Positions 17,209 through 30,890 of a stretch of 64,000 bases of DNA are shown here, one piece after another. The notes below the pieces were generated by a model. It was not told the DNA's origin and did not search any database. It saw only the letters and a list, made by a program, of their open reading frames with translations. This stretch comes from Escherichia coli 042 (GTDB lineage Bacteria; Pseudomonadota; Gammaproteobacteria; Enterobacterales; Enterobacteriaceae), in assembly GCF_000027125.1 (NCBI RefSeq), contig NC_017626.1, one strand, 5' to 3'. The position numbers were made by a program, and so were the translations under genes. Numbering within the stretch: the stretch's first letter is position 1; every line of letters begins with the position of its first letter.

Positions 17209-17928
17209 ATGACCCTTGATTTACCTCGCCGCTTCCCCTGGCCGACGTTACTTTCGGTCTGCATTCATGGTGCTGTTGTGGCGGGTCTGCTCTATACCTC
17301 GGTACATCAGGTTATTGAACTACCTGCGCCTGCGCAGCCAATTTCTGTCACGATGGTTGCGCCTGCGGATCTCGAACCGCCACAAGCCGTTCAGCCACCA
17401 CCGGAGCCGGTGGTAGAGGCAGAACCGGAACCTGAGCCGATCCCCGAACCGCCAAAAGAAGCACCGGTGGTCATTGAAAAGCCGAAGCCGAAACCTAAGC
17501 CAAAACCGAAGCCGGTGAAAAAGGTACAGGAGCAGCCAAAACGCGATGTCAAACCCGTAGAGTCGCGTCCGGCATCACCGTTTGAAAATACGGCACCCGC
17601 GCGCCCGACATCAAGTACGGCAACGGCTGCAACCAGCAAGCCGGTTACCAGTGTGGCTTCAGGACCACGCGCATTAAGCCGCAATCAGCCGCAGTATCCG
17701 GCACGAGCACAGGCATTGCGCATTGAAGGGCAGGTTAAAGTTAAATTTGATGTCACGCCGGATGGTCACGTGGATAACGTGCAAATCCTCTCAGCCAAGC
17801 CTGCGAACATGTTTGAGCGTGAGGTGAAAAATGCGATGCGCAGATGGCGTTATGAGCCGGGTAAGCCAGGCAGTGGGATTGTGGTGAATATCCTGTTTAA
17901 AATTAACGGCACCACCGAAATTCAGTAA
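17209..17928 (+). CDS. tonB: TonB energy transducer (239 aa; start at internal ATG of listed ORF)
   Basis: [17 protein letters not shown]..., Pro-rich EP/KP repeats, C-terminal TonB domain. Confidence 0.95.
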
Positions 17929-28070: not shown

Positions 28071-28532
28071 CTACTGGTTACGTTTCTTTAGTGCCAGCAT
28101 GTTCTCGAAGGCTTCCTCGTAGAGCTTGTTTAGTCCACGTAGCTGGTTAAGGAGTTTGGCTTTTTCTGACGCAGGTAGAATCTCGAAGAGGTTAAGTAAC
28201 TCTGCCTGTTCTTCATTGACCAGCCTCCATCCTTTGCCTGAAAAGTTATCATCATAAGTATCTGATGATCTTACATAATTCATTAAGTCTTTAAGGTCTT
28301 CTCGAATGTCCTCTGGTTTTACCTTTAACAGAGCCGCAAATTTTAGCGCAGCGTCGGTATTTACCGGTATCTTGCCGTTCAGATACTGGCTAACGGTGCC
28401 TTGAGATTCGAATCCCAACAACTCAGCCGCCAGCTCTTGAGTCAGCTTCAGCTCTTTTTTTCTTGCATTCCATGCGGCTTTTAAATTCTTGCTCGCTTCT
28501 GGAGTTGCAATCACTTCGCGTGTTTTTTTCAT
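28071..28532 (-). CDS. racR: prophage repressor, XRE-type HTH (153 aa), RacR-like
   Basis: HTH LTQELAAELLGFESQGTVSQYLNGK; divergent from a cro-like gene; Rac-like gene order. Confidence 0.75.
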   Translation of the reverse strand: MKKTREVIATPEASKNLKAAWNARKKELKLTQELAAELLGFESQGTVSQYLNGKIPVNTDAALKFAALLKVKPEDIREDLKDLMNYVRSSDTYDDNFSGKGWRLVNEEQAELLNLFEILPASEKAKLLNQLRGLNKLYEEAFENMLALKKRNQ

Positions 28533-28639
28533 ACATAGAGTTTATTTGTTTTACCAATATTATCAAAGATAGTCTGGCTATTGATCTTTAAAATTAGCGG
28601 GGCTAATATTTGCTCGAGGCATAACGTAGAAGGTTGGCT
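28533..28639. promoter_or_regulatory. divergent repressor/cro promoter-operator region
   Basis: AT-rich 107-bp intergenic region with imperfect inverted repeat atcaaagat-N12-atctttaaa between divergent HTH genes. Confidence 0.45.
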
Positions 28640-28915
28640 ATGAACTTAAGAGACTATTTAAAAGAGAAACATATCACCCAGCTACAGTTTGGGAAGCTAA
28701 CGGGTTTATCTCAGGTGCATGTAAGTCGAGTGCTGGGGGGCTATGAAAGATTCAGCCCTGAAAAAGCATTACGTGTTGCTGAAGTAACGAATTTCGAGGT
28801 TACACCTCATGAACTCCGGCCTGATATTTACCCGAATCCAACCGACGGCTTACCTGTTGGATTCAAGGCTAACACACCAAATGCATCGGAGTTGATTCAT
28901 GAAAATCAGGCATGA
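28640..28915 (+). CDS. ydaS: Cro-like HTH protein, YdaS-like (91 aa)
   Basis: HTH LQFGKLTGLSQVHVSRVL; GAAGG Shine-Dalgarno; first gene of the rightward operon. Confidence 0.7.
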   Translation: MNLRDYLKEKHITQLQFGKLTGLSQVHVSRVLGGYERFSPEKALRVAEVTNFEVTPHELRPDIYPNPTDGLPVGFKANTPNASELIHENQA

Positions 28916-29324
28916 GCACATCCGCATGGCGATGAATGCCTGGGCGCATCCGGACGGTGAAAAAGTTCCGGCAGCTGAAATAACCCGGGCTTATTTTGAG
29001 CTTGGTATGACGTTCCCGGAATTATATGACGACAGCCATCCGGAAGCCCTGGCTCGCAATACCCAGAAAATTTTCCGCTGGGTGGAGAAAGACACTCCTG
29101 ATGCGGTTAAAAAAATTCAGGCGTTGTTACCAGCGATCGAAAAAGCAATGCCGCCTCTGCTGGTGGCCCGAATGCGCAGCCACAGTTCAGCTTATTTTCG
29201 GGAGCTGGTGGAGACGCGGGAACGACTGGTGAGAGACGCTGATGATTTTGTCGCAGTGGCGATCGCTGGTTTCAACCAGATGAATCGTGGTGGCCCTGCA
29301 GGAAATATTGTGGCTGTGCATTGA
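28899..29324 (+). CDS. ydaT: YdaT-like protein (141 aa; Rac prophage YdaT family)
   Basis: MKIRHEHIRMAMNAWAHPDGEKVPAAEIT... recalled as matching K-12 YdaT; overlaps ydaS-like stop. Confidence 0.75.
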   Translation: MKIRHEHIRMAMNAWAHPDGEKVPAAEITRAYFELGMTFPELYDDSHPEALARNTQKIFRWVEKDTPDAVKKIQALLPAIEKAMPPLLVARMRSHSSAYFRELVETRERLVRDADDFVAVAIAGFNQMNRGGPAGNIVAVH

Positions 29325-29395: not shown

Positions 29396-30436
29396 ATGGC
29401 TAACGCCTGGCTCAGATTATGGCATGACATGCCAAATGACCCTAAGTGGCGAACAATTGCCAGGGTGTCAGGGCAGCCAATTGCAACAGTGATGGCAGTG
29501 TATATCCACCTTCTGGTGAGCGCGTCACGAAATGTCACGACATGTCACGGCGTGTCACTACGTGGTCACATTGATGTCACGACGGAAGATTTAGCAAGTG
29601 CGCTTGATGTGACGGAAGAAGTAATTGATTCAATTTTACAGGCAATGCAGGGGCGGGTACTTGATGGAGATTTAATCACCGGATGGGAAAAACGCCAGGT
29701 ACTGAAAGAGGACAATGGCAACGTTTCACAAACCGCGAAATCCCCGGCAGAGCGCAAGAGAGCGCAGCGCGAGAGGGAAAAATTACGAAAACAGAATGAG
29801 GGGTGTCACGACGAGTCACGCATATGTCACGACATGTCACGACGAGTCACGACAGATAAAGATACAGATAAAGAATTAAACCCCACACATAACGCGCACG
29901 TGCGCGAGAGTGCTCCGACCAGTGAGTCGAGTGGTACGCCGTTGCAGGCAGCAGAACCTGCATCCCTGGATGGACTGAGCGAACCCATCGGGAAATTTCC
30001 GATGGTCGATGACTGGCATCCGTCGCCGGATTTTCGACGACGGGCTGCGTTGTGGGGGATGGCTTTGCCGGAGCCGGAATTTACACCTGCTGAACTTGCC
30101 GCTTTCCGGGACTACTGGGCAGCGGAGGGGAAAGTTTTCACGCAGGTTCAGTGGGAGCAGAAATTCGCCCGTCACGTAAATCACGTCAGGGCGCAGGTTA
30201 AGCCAGTCAGCAAGGGGGTAAACCATGCAGCAGCACCAGGTGGCACCGCATCACGGGCAGTTCAGGAAATTCGGGCAGCACGTGAGCAGTGGGAACGTGA
30301 AAACGGATTTATCAGCGACGGAAACGGTCTGGAAGCTGTGGGAACTCATGGGGGAGGTTTATTCGAACCGCTGGACCCAGAAGAACGGGGCCGCACCTTC
30401 GAAGCTCTGGATTGCACAGATTGGCGCGATGACTGA
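29396..30436 (+). CDS. replication initiator, lambda O-like role (YdaU/DUF1376-like N-terminus), 346 aa; contains ori iterons
   Basis: AAGAGG Shine-Dalgarno; two internal iteron arrays; followed by a lambda P-like gene. Confidence 0.8.
   Translation: MANAWLRLWHDMPNDPKWRTIARVSGQPIATVMAVYIHLLVSASRNVTTCHGVSLRGHIDVTTEDLASALDVTEEVIDSILQAMQGRVLDGDLITGWEKRQVLKEDNGNVSQTAKSPAERKRAQREREKLRKQNEGCHDESRICHDMSRRVTTDKDTDKELNPTHNAHVRESAPTSESSGTPLQAAEPASLDGLSEPIGKFPMVDDWHPSPDFRRRAALWGMALPEPEFTPAELAAFRDYWAAEGKVFTQVQWEQKFARHVNHVRAQVKPVSKGVNHAAAPGGTASRAVQEIRAAREQWERENGFISDGNGLEAVGTHGGGLFEPLDPEERGRTFEALDCTDWRDD
29521..29585. repeat. ori iteron array 1: six GTCAC-core repeats at ~10-bp spacing inside the initiator gene
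   Basis: gtcacgaaatgtcacgacatgtcacggcgtgtcactacgtggtcacattgatgtcacgac. Confidence 0.75.
29801..29880. repeat. ori iteron array 2: five GTCACG repeats at 10-11-bp spacing followed by an AT-rich tandem cagataaaga element
   Basis: gtcacgacgagtcacgcatatgtcacgacatgtcacgacgagtcacgac then agataaagatacagataaagaattaaa. Confidence 0.75.
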
Positions 30437-30890
30437 GCAGCAAATCCGACAGGTCTGCCGCCAGTGCATGGACCGCTGCCGGGCGGGTGAAACATGGCCT
30501 CCGGACCTGGCTGAGTTTGTGGCGCTGATTTCAGAAAGCGGGGCCAATCCATTTGGCCTGACGGTGGATGCTGTGATGGAGGAGTACCGCCGCTGGCGTG
30601 ATGAATCCTGGCGATATGACGGAAGCGACAAATATCCGTGGCCTCAGCCTGTGCTGTACCACATCTGCCTCGAAATGCGTACCAGAGGGATTGAGCGCCA
30701 GATGACGCAGGGTGAGTTAAAACGACTTGCGGAACGGCAACTGACGAAATGGGCAAAGCATGTTGGTAACGGGATGAGTGTTCCGCCAGTGCGACGACAA
30801 CTGGAAGGGGCGAAACACCCGCAAGGGCCAACGCCAATTGAACGGCTGAAACAGGAATACGAACGCCGGAAGGCAGCTGGTTTTATTTGA
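30225..30890 (+). CDS. lambda P-like replication protein (helicase loader family), 221 aa
   Basis: C-terminal half resembles lambda P (YDGSDKYPWPQP..., ...ELKRLAERQLTKWAKHV...); ATG with AGGGGG Shine-Dalgarno; overlaps the initiator 3' end out of frame. Confidence 0.65.
   Translation: MQQHQVAPHHGQFRKFGQHVSSGNVKTDLSATETVWKLWELMGEVYSNRWTQKNGAAPSKLWIAQIGAMTEQQIRQVCRQCMDRCRAGETWPPDLAEFVALISESGANPFGLTVDAVMEEYRRWRDESWRYDGSDKYPWPQPVLYHICLEMRTRGIERQMTQGELKRLAERQLTKWAKHVGNGMSVPPVRRQLEGAKHPQGPTPIERLKQEYERRKAAGFI

What the first reader, a model, noticed from the sequence alone, without database searches (positions are those of the whole stretch)
29521..29880. Replication origin embedded in the initiator gene: two iteron arrays at helical-turn spacing plus an AT-rich element
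Inside the O-like initiator ORF there are two clusters of GTCAC(G)-core repeats spaced 10-11 bp apart (six copies at 29524-29583, five at 29805-29853), the second followed by the AT-rich tandem cagataaaga (29851-29880). This mirrors lambda, where ori iterons lie within the O gene next to an AT-rich unwinding element, and argues that this protein is the true initiator and the segment is the prophage ori. The split into two arrays about 280 bp apart is unusual.
Basis: partly seen in the sequence, partly recalled or inferred. Interest (0 to 1): 0.5.

Follow-up and report, generated by a model that had tools for sequence, protein, structure and literature searches.

The report
Bipartite phage origin inside initiator gene
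Inside the replication-initiator gene of a lambda-like Escherichia prophage lie two clusters of short DNA repeats and an A/T-rich run that are conserved as DNA rather than as protein, which marks them as the likely, so far undescribed, replication origin of a prophage module found in about 40% of complete E. coli genomes.

Summary
There are six GTCAC(G) copies at 29524-29581 and five at 29805-29851, all on the + strand and 10-11 bp apart, followed by a 29-nt A-rich run (29852-29880).

The origin interpretation is supported by comparison, not by experiment:
- The two-array layout recurs in 114 of 122 distinct related loci, from Enterobacterales to Pseudomonas, Bordetella and Ralstonia phages.
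- The cores are fixed at synonymous sites and are read in all three frames.
- The core changes with the initiator subfamily (GTCACG, CGAACGC, GCAACGC), but both arrays always carry the same one.
- The A-rich run uses GAT/AAA codons even in genomes of 57-69% G+C.

The initiator is not a lambda O homologue. Its N-domain is winged-helix-like and matches no Pfam family. Its C-terminal part carries a DnaT-like ssDNA-binding domain. A lambda P-like loader gene follows.

The split into two arrays is the family norm, not an oddity. Array 1 encodes a surface loop of the DNA-binding domain. Array 2 and the A-rich run encode the disordered inter-domain linker, which is also the recombination joint of the mosaic gene.

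I found no literature on this origin type. Verdict: a new variant of the iteron-plus-unwinding-element origin, of moderate interest.

The parts
29396..30436 (+). Initiator gene (346 aa). It has an N-terminal origin-binding domain (aa 1-~105), a basic helix (117-136), a disordered linker (138-~190), a DnaT-like ssDNA-binding domain (193-270) and a C-terminal tail.
   Evidence: ORF and ribosome-binding site. PHROG 'replication initiation protein' families 1408 and 3729. Pfam DnaT PF17948, E 2e-17. PDB DnaT chains, E 2e-20. AF2 model. RefSeq name 'DnaT-like ssDNA-binding domain-containing protein' in an identical E. coli module.
29524..29581 (+). Iteron array 1: six direct GTCAC(G) cores at 10-11-bp spacing. 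It encodes the loop SRNVTTCHGVSLRGHIDVT of the N-domain. The family norm is four copies; this allele has two extra (+21 bp, +7 aa).
   Evidence: Conserved at gene nt 129/139/149/160 in about 100 loci. Synonymous-site conservation. 21-bp indel relative to phage Evi.
29609..29613 (-). Single inverted core copy (GTGAC on the + strand), 33 bp after the last copy of array 1.
   Evidence: Present at the equivalent place (gene nt 193) in 19 of 23 GTCAC-subfamily loci (L001-L024). In three loci it is kept as DNA although shifted and coding for other residues.
29805..29851 (+). Iteron array 2: five direct GTCACG cores at spacings of 10, 11, 10 and 10. It encodes part of the disordered inter-domain linker.
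   Evidence: The cores are identical in phage Evi while the spacers change from 11/10 to 10/11, so the third core is read in another frame (ICHD versus NVTH). There are 3-6 copies in relatives.
29852..29880 (+). A-rich, purine-rich run ACAGATAAAGATACAGATAAAGAATTAAA. It is the candidate DNA unwinding element and also the recombination joint of the mosaic gene.
   Evidence: Lowest 0.3% of 24-nt G+C in the window. (GATAAA)n or (GATACA)n directly follows array 2 in nearly all relatives, including genomes of 57-69% G+C, and is read in different frames. Codon bias GAT:GAC 32:4 versus 88:156, p 1.5e-9. megablast hits to two different phage sets overlap at gene nt 459-479.
29893..29906 (.). Perfect 14-bp palindrome CGCGCACGTGCGCG, 12 nt after the A-rich run. 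It may belong to the origin, but this is uncertain.
   Evidence: Unrelated inverted repeats occur at the same relative place in some relatives but not all.
30225..30890 (+). Lambda P-like helicase loader gene. RefSeq starts it at 30429. The long ORF from 30225 overlaps the initiator's 3' end in another frame.
   Evidence: phrog_109 'P-like helicase loader', E 2e-63. RefSeq 'replication protein P'. Substitution pattern in the overlap.
28071..29324 (.). Immunity and early-regulation context: repressor-like HTH gene (28071-28532, -), cro/YdaS-like gene (28640-28915, +) and cII-like/YdaT-family gene (28899-29324, +), immediately upstream of the initiator.
   Evidence: phrog_163, CII-like; RefSeq annotation of the identical module.

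Best explanation
The segment is the origin of lytic (theta) replication of this lambdoid prophage, and it lies within the gene of its own initiator.

Proposed mechanism (inferred, not shown):
- The N-terminal winged-helix-like domain of the initiator binds as monomers, head to tail, to the 6-bp GTCACG cores.
- The cores repeat every helical turn, so the proteins line up on one face of the DNA at two arrays about 230 bp apart.
- The two protein-DNA assemblies act together, probably by interacting with each other and bending or looping the intervening DNA.
- This destabilises the A-rich (GATAMA)n run that abuts array 2.
- The C-terminal part of the initiator (DnaT-like ssDNA-binding domain plus tail) engages the opened strand and recruits the P-like loader with host DnaB.

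Shown here:
- The repeats and the A-rich run are under DNA-level selection.
- The repeats co-vary with the initiator subfamily.
- They sit in a surface loop and in the disordered linker of the protein.
For: (1) Non-random arrays at helical spacing. Across relatives the spacing is 10 nt (87 cases), 11 nt (31) or 12 nt (1) in the GTCAC subfamily, and 10 nt (30) or 11 nt (2) in the CGAACGC subfamily.

(2) The same two-array layout occurs in 114 of 122 distinct loci from genomes of 46-69% G+C.

(3) DNA-level constraint. Third-codon-position entropy is 0.27 bits inside the cores and 1.35 bits outside (p 1.4e-4). Outside the cores the only invariant third positions belong to Trp or Met codons. The core is read in all three frames, and in different frames in close alleles.

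(4) Covariation. Three N-domain subfamilies carry three cores (GTCACG, CGAACGC, GCAACGC). Each core is present in both arrays, at the same two gene positions.

(5) The A-rich run after array 2 is in the lowest 0-6% of local G+C (lowest 1.5% in most) in nearly all GTCAC-subfamily loci and in most CGAACGC-subfamily loci. It has strongly A/T-biased synonymous codons in GC-rich hosts.

(6) Module structure. The N-domain plus both arrays is inherited as one unit. The DnaT-like C-terminal half plus P is inherited as another, joined at the A-rich run.

(7) Protein. The predicted fold is winged-helix-like. Array 1 lies in a hairpin loop, and array 2 and the A-run lie in a linker with pLDDT below 50. 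PHROG assigns 'replication initiation protein', and a P-like loader gene follows.

(8) Precedent. In lambda and Stx phages the origin (iterons plus AT-rich tract) lies in the middle of O, and extra iterons add residues to O (PMC7466680). SPP1 oriL (direct repeats plus an AT-rich DUE) lies within gene 38 (PMC6316719).
Against: There is no experimental evidence for this family: no studied phage carries it and I found no literature. The A-rich run is short (29 nt here), shorter than lambda's AT-rich region of about 40 bp (from memory). It could owe its conservation partly to hexamer slippage or to its role as a recombination joint. The fold search gave no significant match (best E 0.15), so the DNA-binding assignment of the N-domain rests on fold resemblance and weak PHROG hits. 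There is no DnaA box nearby. The role of array 1, and any interaction between the arrays, is pure inference. The inter-array distance is constrained by coding, so it says little about phasing.
Confidence: 0.75

Rival explanations
1. Only array 2 plus the A-rich run is the origin proper. Array 1, with its inverted copy, is an auxiliary control site. It could be a roadblock or autoregulatory operator inside the initiator's own reading frame, or a titration or handcuffing site like incA of P1 or incC of F.
For: The A-rich run is next to array 2 only. Array 1 alone has a conserved inverted copy downstream, at gene nt 193, which recalls the inverted-repeat operators of iteron plasmids (from memory). 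A Pantoea relative (L030) lacks array 1 but keeps repeats and an A-rich run in the linker. In lambda the two iterons next to the AT-rich region suffice in vitro (PMC7466680).
Against: Array 1 is as conserved as array 2 in copy spacing, orientation and core identity across three specificities. That is also what an essential part of a bipartite origin would show. No promoter-like site lies near it.
Confidence: 0.3
2. The repeats are a by-product of protein-level repeats or of replication slippage in a low-complexity coding region, and have no function as DNA.
For: Copy number varies between alleles (4 versus 6 copies in array 1, 3 to 6 in array 2), as slippage would produce.
Against: The peptides are not repeated, because the 10-nt period rotates the frame. 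Synonymous positions of the cores are fixed across genomes of 48-69% G+C. Cores are kept while frame and residues change. Two separate arrays share one core in each of three subfamilies.
Confidence: 0.03
3. The arrays are binding sites for some other protein, such as a host factor or another phage regulator. They would serve transcription control, packaging or partition rather than replication initiation.
For: No binding data exist. Short direct repeats at 10-11-bp spacing are also typical of response-regulator and centromere-binding sites (from memory).
Against: The core changes with the subfamily of the N-domain that the arrays lie in, while flanking genes and C-terminal modules are exchanged freely. 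The host range spans several proteobacterial classes, which argues against a host factor with three specificities. The position next to an A-rich run and upstream of a helicase loader or DnaB gene fits an origin.
Confidence: 0.07
4. The (GATAMA)n run is not an unwinding element. It would be only a flexible acidic/basic linker (DKDTDK) and a conserved microhomology at which N- and C-terminal modules recombine.
For: It is exactly the joint of the mosaic. Rac-SA53 ydaU, which has an unrelated N-domain, has the same AAAGATACAGATACAGAT at the junction. Tandem hexamers can spread by slippage.
Against: The run is kept as DNA in loci that read it in other frames (LDKIREE, DRLDKRR). It always abuts the last iteron. 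Its A/T codon bias holds against host G+C of 0.53-0.69. The two roles are not exclusive.
Confidence: 0.2

Closest known systems
ori-lambda within gene O of phage lambda and Stx phages (O initiator, P loader)
   Same: The origin lies inside the initiator gene, in the part that codes for the link between the N- and C-terminal domains. Direct repeats lie next to an A/T-rich tract. Extra repeats add residues to the protein. The N-domain and iterons form one exchangeable specificity module, and the C-domain and P-type loader form another. A P-like loader gene follows.
   Different: The N-domain is not homologous to O; there is no Phage_rep_O hit. The iterons are 6-7-bp asymmetric cores every 10-11 bp, not 19-bp dyad-symmetric sites about two turns apart (the lambda figures are from memory). 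There are two arrays about 230 bp apart, one of them inside the sequence coding for the DNA-binding domain. The C-terminal part carries a DnaT-like domain.
Phage replisome organizers of Gram-positive phages (SPP1 gp38/G38P with oriL; Pfam Phage_rep_org_N)
   Same: The origin-binding protein binds direct repeats that lie within its own gene, next to an AT-rich DUE. SPP1 has a second copy of the repeat set (oriR) elsewhere (PMC6316719). NCBI names this protein 'phage replisome organizer'. There are weak PHROG hits to replisome organizer and DnaD-like families.
   Different: Sequence relationship is marginal (Pfam PF09681 in only 2 of 35 members, at E about 0.01). Both repeat sets here lie within one gene, 230 bp apart, not kilobases apart. 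The partner is a lambda P-type loader or a DnaB, and the hosts are Proteobacteria.
Iteron plasmids with two iteron sets flanking rep (P1 incC/incA, F incB/incC), and P4 ori plus crr (from memory)
   Same: Two clusters of the same initiator-binding repeat lie on either side of (here, inside) the initiator coding sequence. Only one cluster adjoins the unwinding region. Looping or handcuffing between clusters is an established mode of action in those systems.
   Different: Those iterons are 19-22 bp (8 bp in P4) and lie outside the coding sequence. The second set there limits copy number of a stably maintained plasmid. Here the element is a lytic phage module rarely found on plasmids.
SaPI/PICI replication origins (from memory; cf. 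PMC9371898 listed)
   Same: Short (6-8 bp) iterons in two sets, specific for the cognate initiator, associated with an AT-rich melting region.
   Different: SaPI iteron sets flank the AT-rich region and lie downstream of rep. The initiator there is itself a helicase.

Membership tests
lambda O / ori-lambda type origin | Initiator N-domain homologous to lambda O (Pfam Phage_rep_O) | tested here: not met
   A Pfam scan of the protein and of 35 N-domain relatives gave no Phage_rep_O hit. The only significant domain is DnaT, at aa 201-267.
lambda O / ori-lambda type origin | Origin located inside the initiator gene, between the regions coding for the N- and C-terminal domains | tested here: met
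   Array 2 and the A-rich run fall in the predicted disordered linker, aa 138-166.
lambda O / ori-lambda type origin | About four 19-bp dyad-symmetric iterons bound by O dimers | tested here: not met
   The cores are 6 bp, asymmetric, all in one orientation and spaced 10-11 bp apart.
lambda O / ori-lambda type origin | A/T-rich tract adjacent to the iterons | tested here: met
   The 29-nt run at 29852-29880 is in the lowest 0.3% of 24-nt G+C in the window. It is conserved in relatives and has A/T codon bias.
lambda O / ori-lambda type origin | Partner P-type helicase loader encoded immediately downstream | tested here: met
   phrog_109, E 2e-63. RefSeq 'replication protein P'.
Phage replisome organizer (Pfam Phage_rep_org_N, SPP1 gp38-like) | Sequence membership in PF09681 | tested here: inconclusive
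   No hit for the window protein. Two of 35 relatives hit at E about 0.01. PHROG hits: DnaD-like loader E 4.8e-7, replisome organizer E 4.5e-5.
Phage replisome organizer (Pfam Phage_rep_org_N, SPP1 gp38-like) | Direct repeats plus an AT-rich DUE within the organizer's own gene | tested here: met
   The SPP1 description is from PMC6316719.
DnaT (primosomal protein I) | DnaT ssDNA-binding domain PF17948 | tested here: met
   Pfam E 2.2e-17 at aa 201-267. PDB DnaT chains 4ou6, 4ou7 and 9zbt, E about 2e-20.
DnaT (primosomal protein I) | Full-length equivalog of E. coli DnaT (NCBIfam NF002770 cut-off) | tested here: not met
   97.4 bits against a cut-off of 201. Only profile positions 80-166 match.
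Iteron-type replication origin (generic) | Three or more direct repeats in helical phase, more than chance | tested here: met
Iteron-type replication origin (generic) | Repeats conserved as DNA beyond what coding requires | tested here: met
Iteron-type replication origin (generic) | Repeat sequence co-varies with the cognate initiator | tested here: met
   Three cores for three N-domain subfamilies, with the same core in both arrays.
Iteron-type replication origin (generic) | Initiator binds the repeats, and the repeats are required in cis for replication | not testable with these tools
   This needs EMSA or footprinting and a replication assay.

The most novel reading that the evidence does not exclude
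The iteron array may encode the part of the initiator that reads it.

Within the folded N-domain (aa 1-105), only four residues consistently separate the GTCACG subfamily from the CGAACGC subfamily. These are positions 46, 47, 48 and 58 (N-V-T...H versus A-T-E...R). All four lie in the hairpin loop that array 1 itself encodes. The putative recognition helix and the wing do not discriminate.

If that loop contacts the bases, a change of the repeat would alter the binding site and the reading head in a single step. That would give a built-in route to new, mutually exclusive origin specificities.

The alternative is that the loop merely tolerates whatever the DNA dictates, and that specificity sits in the basic helix at positions 117-124, which also discriminates.
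Probability: 0.12. Interest if true: 0.8.

Novelty: new variant of a known kind. Interest (0 to 1): 0.5.

Why it matters
- **Prevalence.** The module is in 2200 of 5426 complete E. coli genomes, with up to five copies per genome and three in the O157:H7 strains sampled. It is also in prophages and isolated phages of Pseudomonas, Aeromonas, Ralstonia, Bordetella and others. Its origin appears never to have been described.
- **Uses.** Knowing the origin and its three specificities gives testable predictions for prophage induction biology and for replication incompatibility between co-resident prophages. It also gives predictions for satellite or defence systems that sense phage replication, and for vector design.
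- **Overlapping code.** A protein loop and a linker have sequences dictated by a DNA-binding-site array and an unwinding element. The helical repeat (10/11 nt) is reconciled with the reading frame by 21-nt indels of two repeats.

Tried and rejected
- **Literature.** Searches for this initiator family, for ydaU origins, for GTCACG iterons and for DnaT-like phage initiators found nothing relevant. The Pf-5 paper's iterons concern an unrelated plasmid-like island.
- **Plasmids.** I looked for autonomous plasmids that use the module as their replicon. There were only 11 hits, on large plasmids, mislabelled chromosomes or phage-sized circles, so there is no support from natural mini-replicons.
- **Fold search.** The search of the N-domain model against the PDB gave no significant match, only a list dominated by winged-helix proteins.
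- **Downstream hairpin.** I tested whether a hairpin or palindrome after the A-rich run is a general feature. It is strong in some loci (stems of 7-11 bp) but absent in others, so it is not established.
- **Phasing between arrays.** The gap is mostly 227-231 bp but is tied to coding length and copy number, so it is uninformative.
- **Other checks.** There are no Rfam families, no DnaA boxes and no promoter- or terminator-like sites beyond chance.
- **First viral scan.** The first viral-contig scan returned only near-identical alleles. A second scan, led by a distant sequence, was needed.
Full report
**Observation**

- Array 1: GTCACG at 29524, 29534 and 29544, GTCACT at 29554, GTCACA at 29565 and GTCACG at 29576.
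- Array 2: GTCACG at 29805, 29815, 29826, 29836 and 29846.
- All copies are on the + strand. Spacings are 10, 10, 10, 11, 11 and 10, 11, 10, 10.

Nine of the 38 GTCACG sites of the 64-kb window lie in these two stretches. Tandem Repeats Finder calls both period-10 arrays and a period-6/12 repeat at 29852-29874. In 300 first-order Markov simulations of the window, no 60-nt stretch held more than three GTCAC on one strand, against six here.

The 29-nt run ACAGATAAAGATACAGATAAAGAATTAAA (29852-29880) abuts the last copy. It falls in the lowest 0.3% of 24-nt G+C values of the window. One inverted copy, GTGAC at 29609-29613, lies 33 bp after array 1.

**Context**

The arrays lie in ORF 29396-30436 (346 aa). 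Upstream are a repressor-like gene (28071-28532, minus strand), a cro/YdaS-like gene and a cII-like/YdaT-family gene. Downstream is a lambda P-like helicase loader (phrog_109, E 2e-63).

An identical module in E. coli 118UI is annotated 'DnaT-like ssDNA-binding domain-containing protein' followed by 'replication protein P'. E. albertii NBRC 107761 has a 98% identical protein.

The protein is not a lambda O homologue. The only significant Pfam domain is DnaT, at aa 201-267, which is confirmed against solved DnaT structures at E about 2e-20. The N-terminal 160 residues match PHROG 'replication initiation protein' families, match DnaD-like and replisome-organizer families weakly, and match no Pfam family at significance.

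An AlphaFold2 model of the N-domain (mean pLDDT 76.5) has these elements:
- three helices (aa 4-45);
- a hairpin loop (46-62);
- two further helices and a wing (63-95);
- a long basic helix (117-136);
- a disordered tail (138-166).

The Foldseek matches are not significant, but they are dominated by winged-helix DNA-binding domains and include a plasmid initiator. Array 1 therefore encodes the 46-62 loop. Array 2 and the A-rich run encode the disordered linker.

**Mosaicism**

megablast against phage genomes splits the gene in two. Nucleotides 1-479 (N-domain plus both arrays) match one set of induced E. coli prophages (Evi, Tritos and others) at about 88%. Nucleotides 459-1041 match Rac-SA53 ydaU and relatives at about 92%, and the N-domain of those is unrelated. 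The two match sets overlap exactly in the A-rich run.

Rac-SA53 ydaU carries its own inverted repeats just upstream of the same AAAGATACAGATACAGAT junction. So the specificity module (N-domain plus arrays) and the recruitment module (DnaT-like C-terminal half plus P) are exchanged at this joint. The O N-terminus with its iterons and the O C-terminus with P behave the same way among lambdoid phages (from memory).

**The repeats are selected as DNA**

Four results support this.

1. The 10-nt period rotates the reading frame, so GTCACG is translated as S-R, V-T or C/G-H. The peptide is therefore not repetitive.
2. In phage Evi the five cores of array 2 are identical, but two spacers change from 11/10 to 10/11 nt. 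The third core is then read in another frame (ICHD becomes NVTH). Array 1 differs by a 21-nt indel, which is two repeats or seven codons.
3. I compared 19 diverse loci with genome G+C of 47-69%. Third-codon positions inside the cores have a mean entropy of 0.27 bits, against 1.35 bits outside (Mann-Whitney p 1.4e-4). All invariant third positions outside the cores belong to Trp or Met codons.
4. The inverted copy is kept as GTGAC in three loci where it is shifted and encodes other residues.

**The layout is the family norm, and the core co-varies with the initiator**

A scan of one genome per species returned 42 loci. In Enterobacterales, Pseudomonas, Chromobacterium, Bordetella, Stenotrophomonas and others the layout is as follows:
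- GTCAC at gene nt 129, 139, 149 and 160;
- one inverted copy at nt 193;
- three to five further copies at nt ~387-430.

A more distant subfamily includes Janthinobacterium, Variovorax, Methylibium, Sphingobium, Collimonas, Acidovorax, Rhodoferax and a Negativicutes MAG. It has no GTCAC. It carries CGAACGC at the same two places with the same 10-nt spacing.

Ralstonia phage Firinga has an N-domain only 37% identical. It carries a third core, GCAACG(C), at nt 130-161 and nt 401-431, and a dnaB gene follows.

An automated search covered 122 distinct loci, including two scans of viral contigs. It found 10/11-nt periodic chains in both zones in 114 loci, and the two zones shared the core in 103. 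Most of the remaining 11 are CGAACGC-subfamily loci in which the method picked overlapping 6-mers of the same core. Spacings within arrays were 10 nt (117 cases), 11 nt (33) and 12 nt (1).

The window's allele is an expanded form, with 6+5 copies against the commoner 4+3 to 4+5.

**The A-rich run**

Directly after the last copy of array 2, nearly every locus of both subfamilies has (GATAAA)n, (GATACA)n or a close variant. This holds in genomes of up to 69% G+C, where the run is in the lowest 0-1% of local G+C. It is read in different frames in different loci (DKDKDK, LDKIREE, DRLDKRR).

In 11 loci with 53-69% G+C, I compared the 16 codons after array 2 with the rest of the same genes:

| Codon pair | After array 2 | Rest of gene | p |
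|---|---|---|---|
| GAT:GAC | 32:4 | 88:156 | 1.5e-9 |
| AAA:AAG | 29:5 | 46:80 | 4e-7 |
| GAA:GAG | 13:3 | 82:119 | 0.003 |

This is what a DNA unwinding element embedded in coding sequence should look like. Hexamer slippage and the run's role as a recombination joint may also contribute.

**Mechanism**

The best-supported reading is an iteron-type origin. Monomers of a winged-helix-like domain bind 6-7-bp cores once per helical turn, on one face of the DNA, at two arrays about 230 bp apart. The adjacent A-rich run melts. The DnaT-like domain and the tail then engage single-stranded DNA and bring in P-DnaB.

Only the anatomy, the DNA-level selection and the covariation are shown. Binding, cooperation between the arrays and melting are inferred.

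The main open point is the role of array 1. It could be an essential half of a bipartite origin, or an auxiliary or autoregulatory site. Precedents for two sets of initiator sites include SPP1 oriL/oriR (PMC6316719). From memory they also include P1 incC/incA, F incB/incC, P4 ori/crr and SaPI origins. For lambda and Stx phages, the position of the origin in the middle of O, the 4-versus-6 iteron polymorphism that adds 13 residues to O, and O binding to A/T-rich single strands are described in PMC7466680.

**An unexpected detail**

Inside the folded domain, the only residues that consistently separate the GTCACG and CGAACGC subfamilies are positions 46, 47, 48 and 58, all encoded by array 1 itself. 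Outside it, positions 117, 122 and 124 of the basic helix also discriminate. The putative recognition helix varies within subfamilies and does not discriminate.

Either the loop is a passive passenger of the DNA constraint, or it takes part in reading the repeat that encodes it. The data do not decide between these.

**Novelty and prevalence**

No classical or experimentally studied phage carries this N-domain, and four literature searches found no description. The module is nevertheless present in 2200 of 5426 complete E. coli genomes, with up to five copies per genome and three in the O157:H7 strains sampled. It is rare on plasmids.

I class it as a new variant of a known kind: an origin within the initiator gene, made of iterons plus a DUE. 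It is distinguished by one-turn-spaced short cores, a conserved bipartite layout with one array inside the sequence coding for the DNA-binding domain, a hexamer-repeat unwinding element and a DnaT-like recruitment domain.

Interest is moderate. The finding is solid and widely relevant, but it conforms conceptually to the lambda/SPP1 paradigm.

Noticed in passing
window 30225-30436: The initiator ORF and a long P-frame ORF (30225-30890, 221 aa) overlap by 212 nt in different frames. RefSeq starts P at 30429. However, the PHROG P-like loader profile aligns almost end to end (positions 22-236 of 236) with the long ORF, and a 482-aa PHROG family (phrog_15931) spans both proteins as if they were fused. 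Substitutions against three relatives never hit initiator codon position 2, which is P position 1. They are spread over the other two positions, which suggests dual coding or a mis-set P start.
   Followed up: partly
L030 (Pantoea sp. BAV 3049), gene nt 328-725: This locus has the same N-domain family but no array 1. Instead, two clusters of CTACGTA/TTCGTAG (direct and inverted) flank an AT-rich in-frame insert of about 270 nt, followed by (ACAGAT)4. It looks like a different origin cassette inserted at the same linker position.
   Followed up: partly
window 29893-29906: A perfect 14-bp palindrome, CGCGCACGTGCGCG, lies 12 nt after the A-rich run. Several relatives have unrelated strong inverted repeats at the same relative place (L024 has an 11-bp stem, L008 and L032 have 8 bp), but others have none. 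Lambda also has a palindrome to the right of its AT-rich region (from memory).
   Followed up: partly
L035, L036, L039, L041 (one betaproteobacterial MAG, Day6-1_bin-090): Four copies of an N-domain homologue occur in a single MAG. Their arrays are degenerate or absent, they have no A-rich run, and their C-terminal region is different. They may be a domesticated or non-origin use of the domain.
   Followed up: no
window 29396-29893 versus E. coli genomes: The module is present in 2200 of 5426 complete E. coli genomes, with up to five places per genome and three in the O157:H7 strains sampled. Many NCBI protein records of the family are 'partial', which suggests that draft assemblies often break in or near this repeat-bearing, multi-copy gene.
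   Followed up: no
L002 (Rac-SA53 ydaU), locus nt ~2440-2480: The DUF1376-type YdaU initiator, which has an unrelated N-domain, has its own inverted repeats (GTGTTCAAACA and GTGTTTGAACA) immediately upstream of the same KDTDTD/AAAGATACAGAT junction. They may be the equivalent origin of Rac-type prophages.
   Followed up: no
L020 (Serratia marcescens 106R), gene nt ~330 onward: The initiator homologue shifts out of frame after about codon 110, although both arrays and the (GATAAA)n run are intact as DNA. It may be a pseudogene that keeps a cis-acting origin, or a sequencing error.
   Followed up: no
window 17752-17770: Two further + strand GTCACG copies lie 13 nt apart, far from the initiator gene. 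With only two copies and off-phase spacing, this is probably chance.
   Followed up: no
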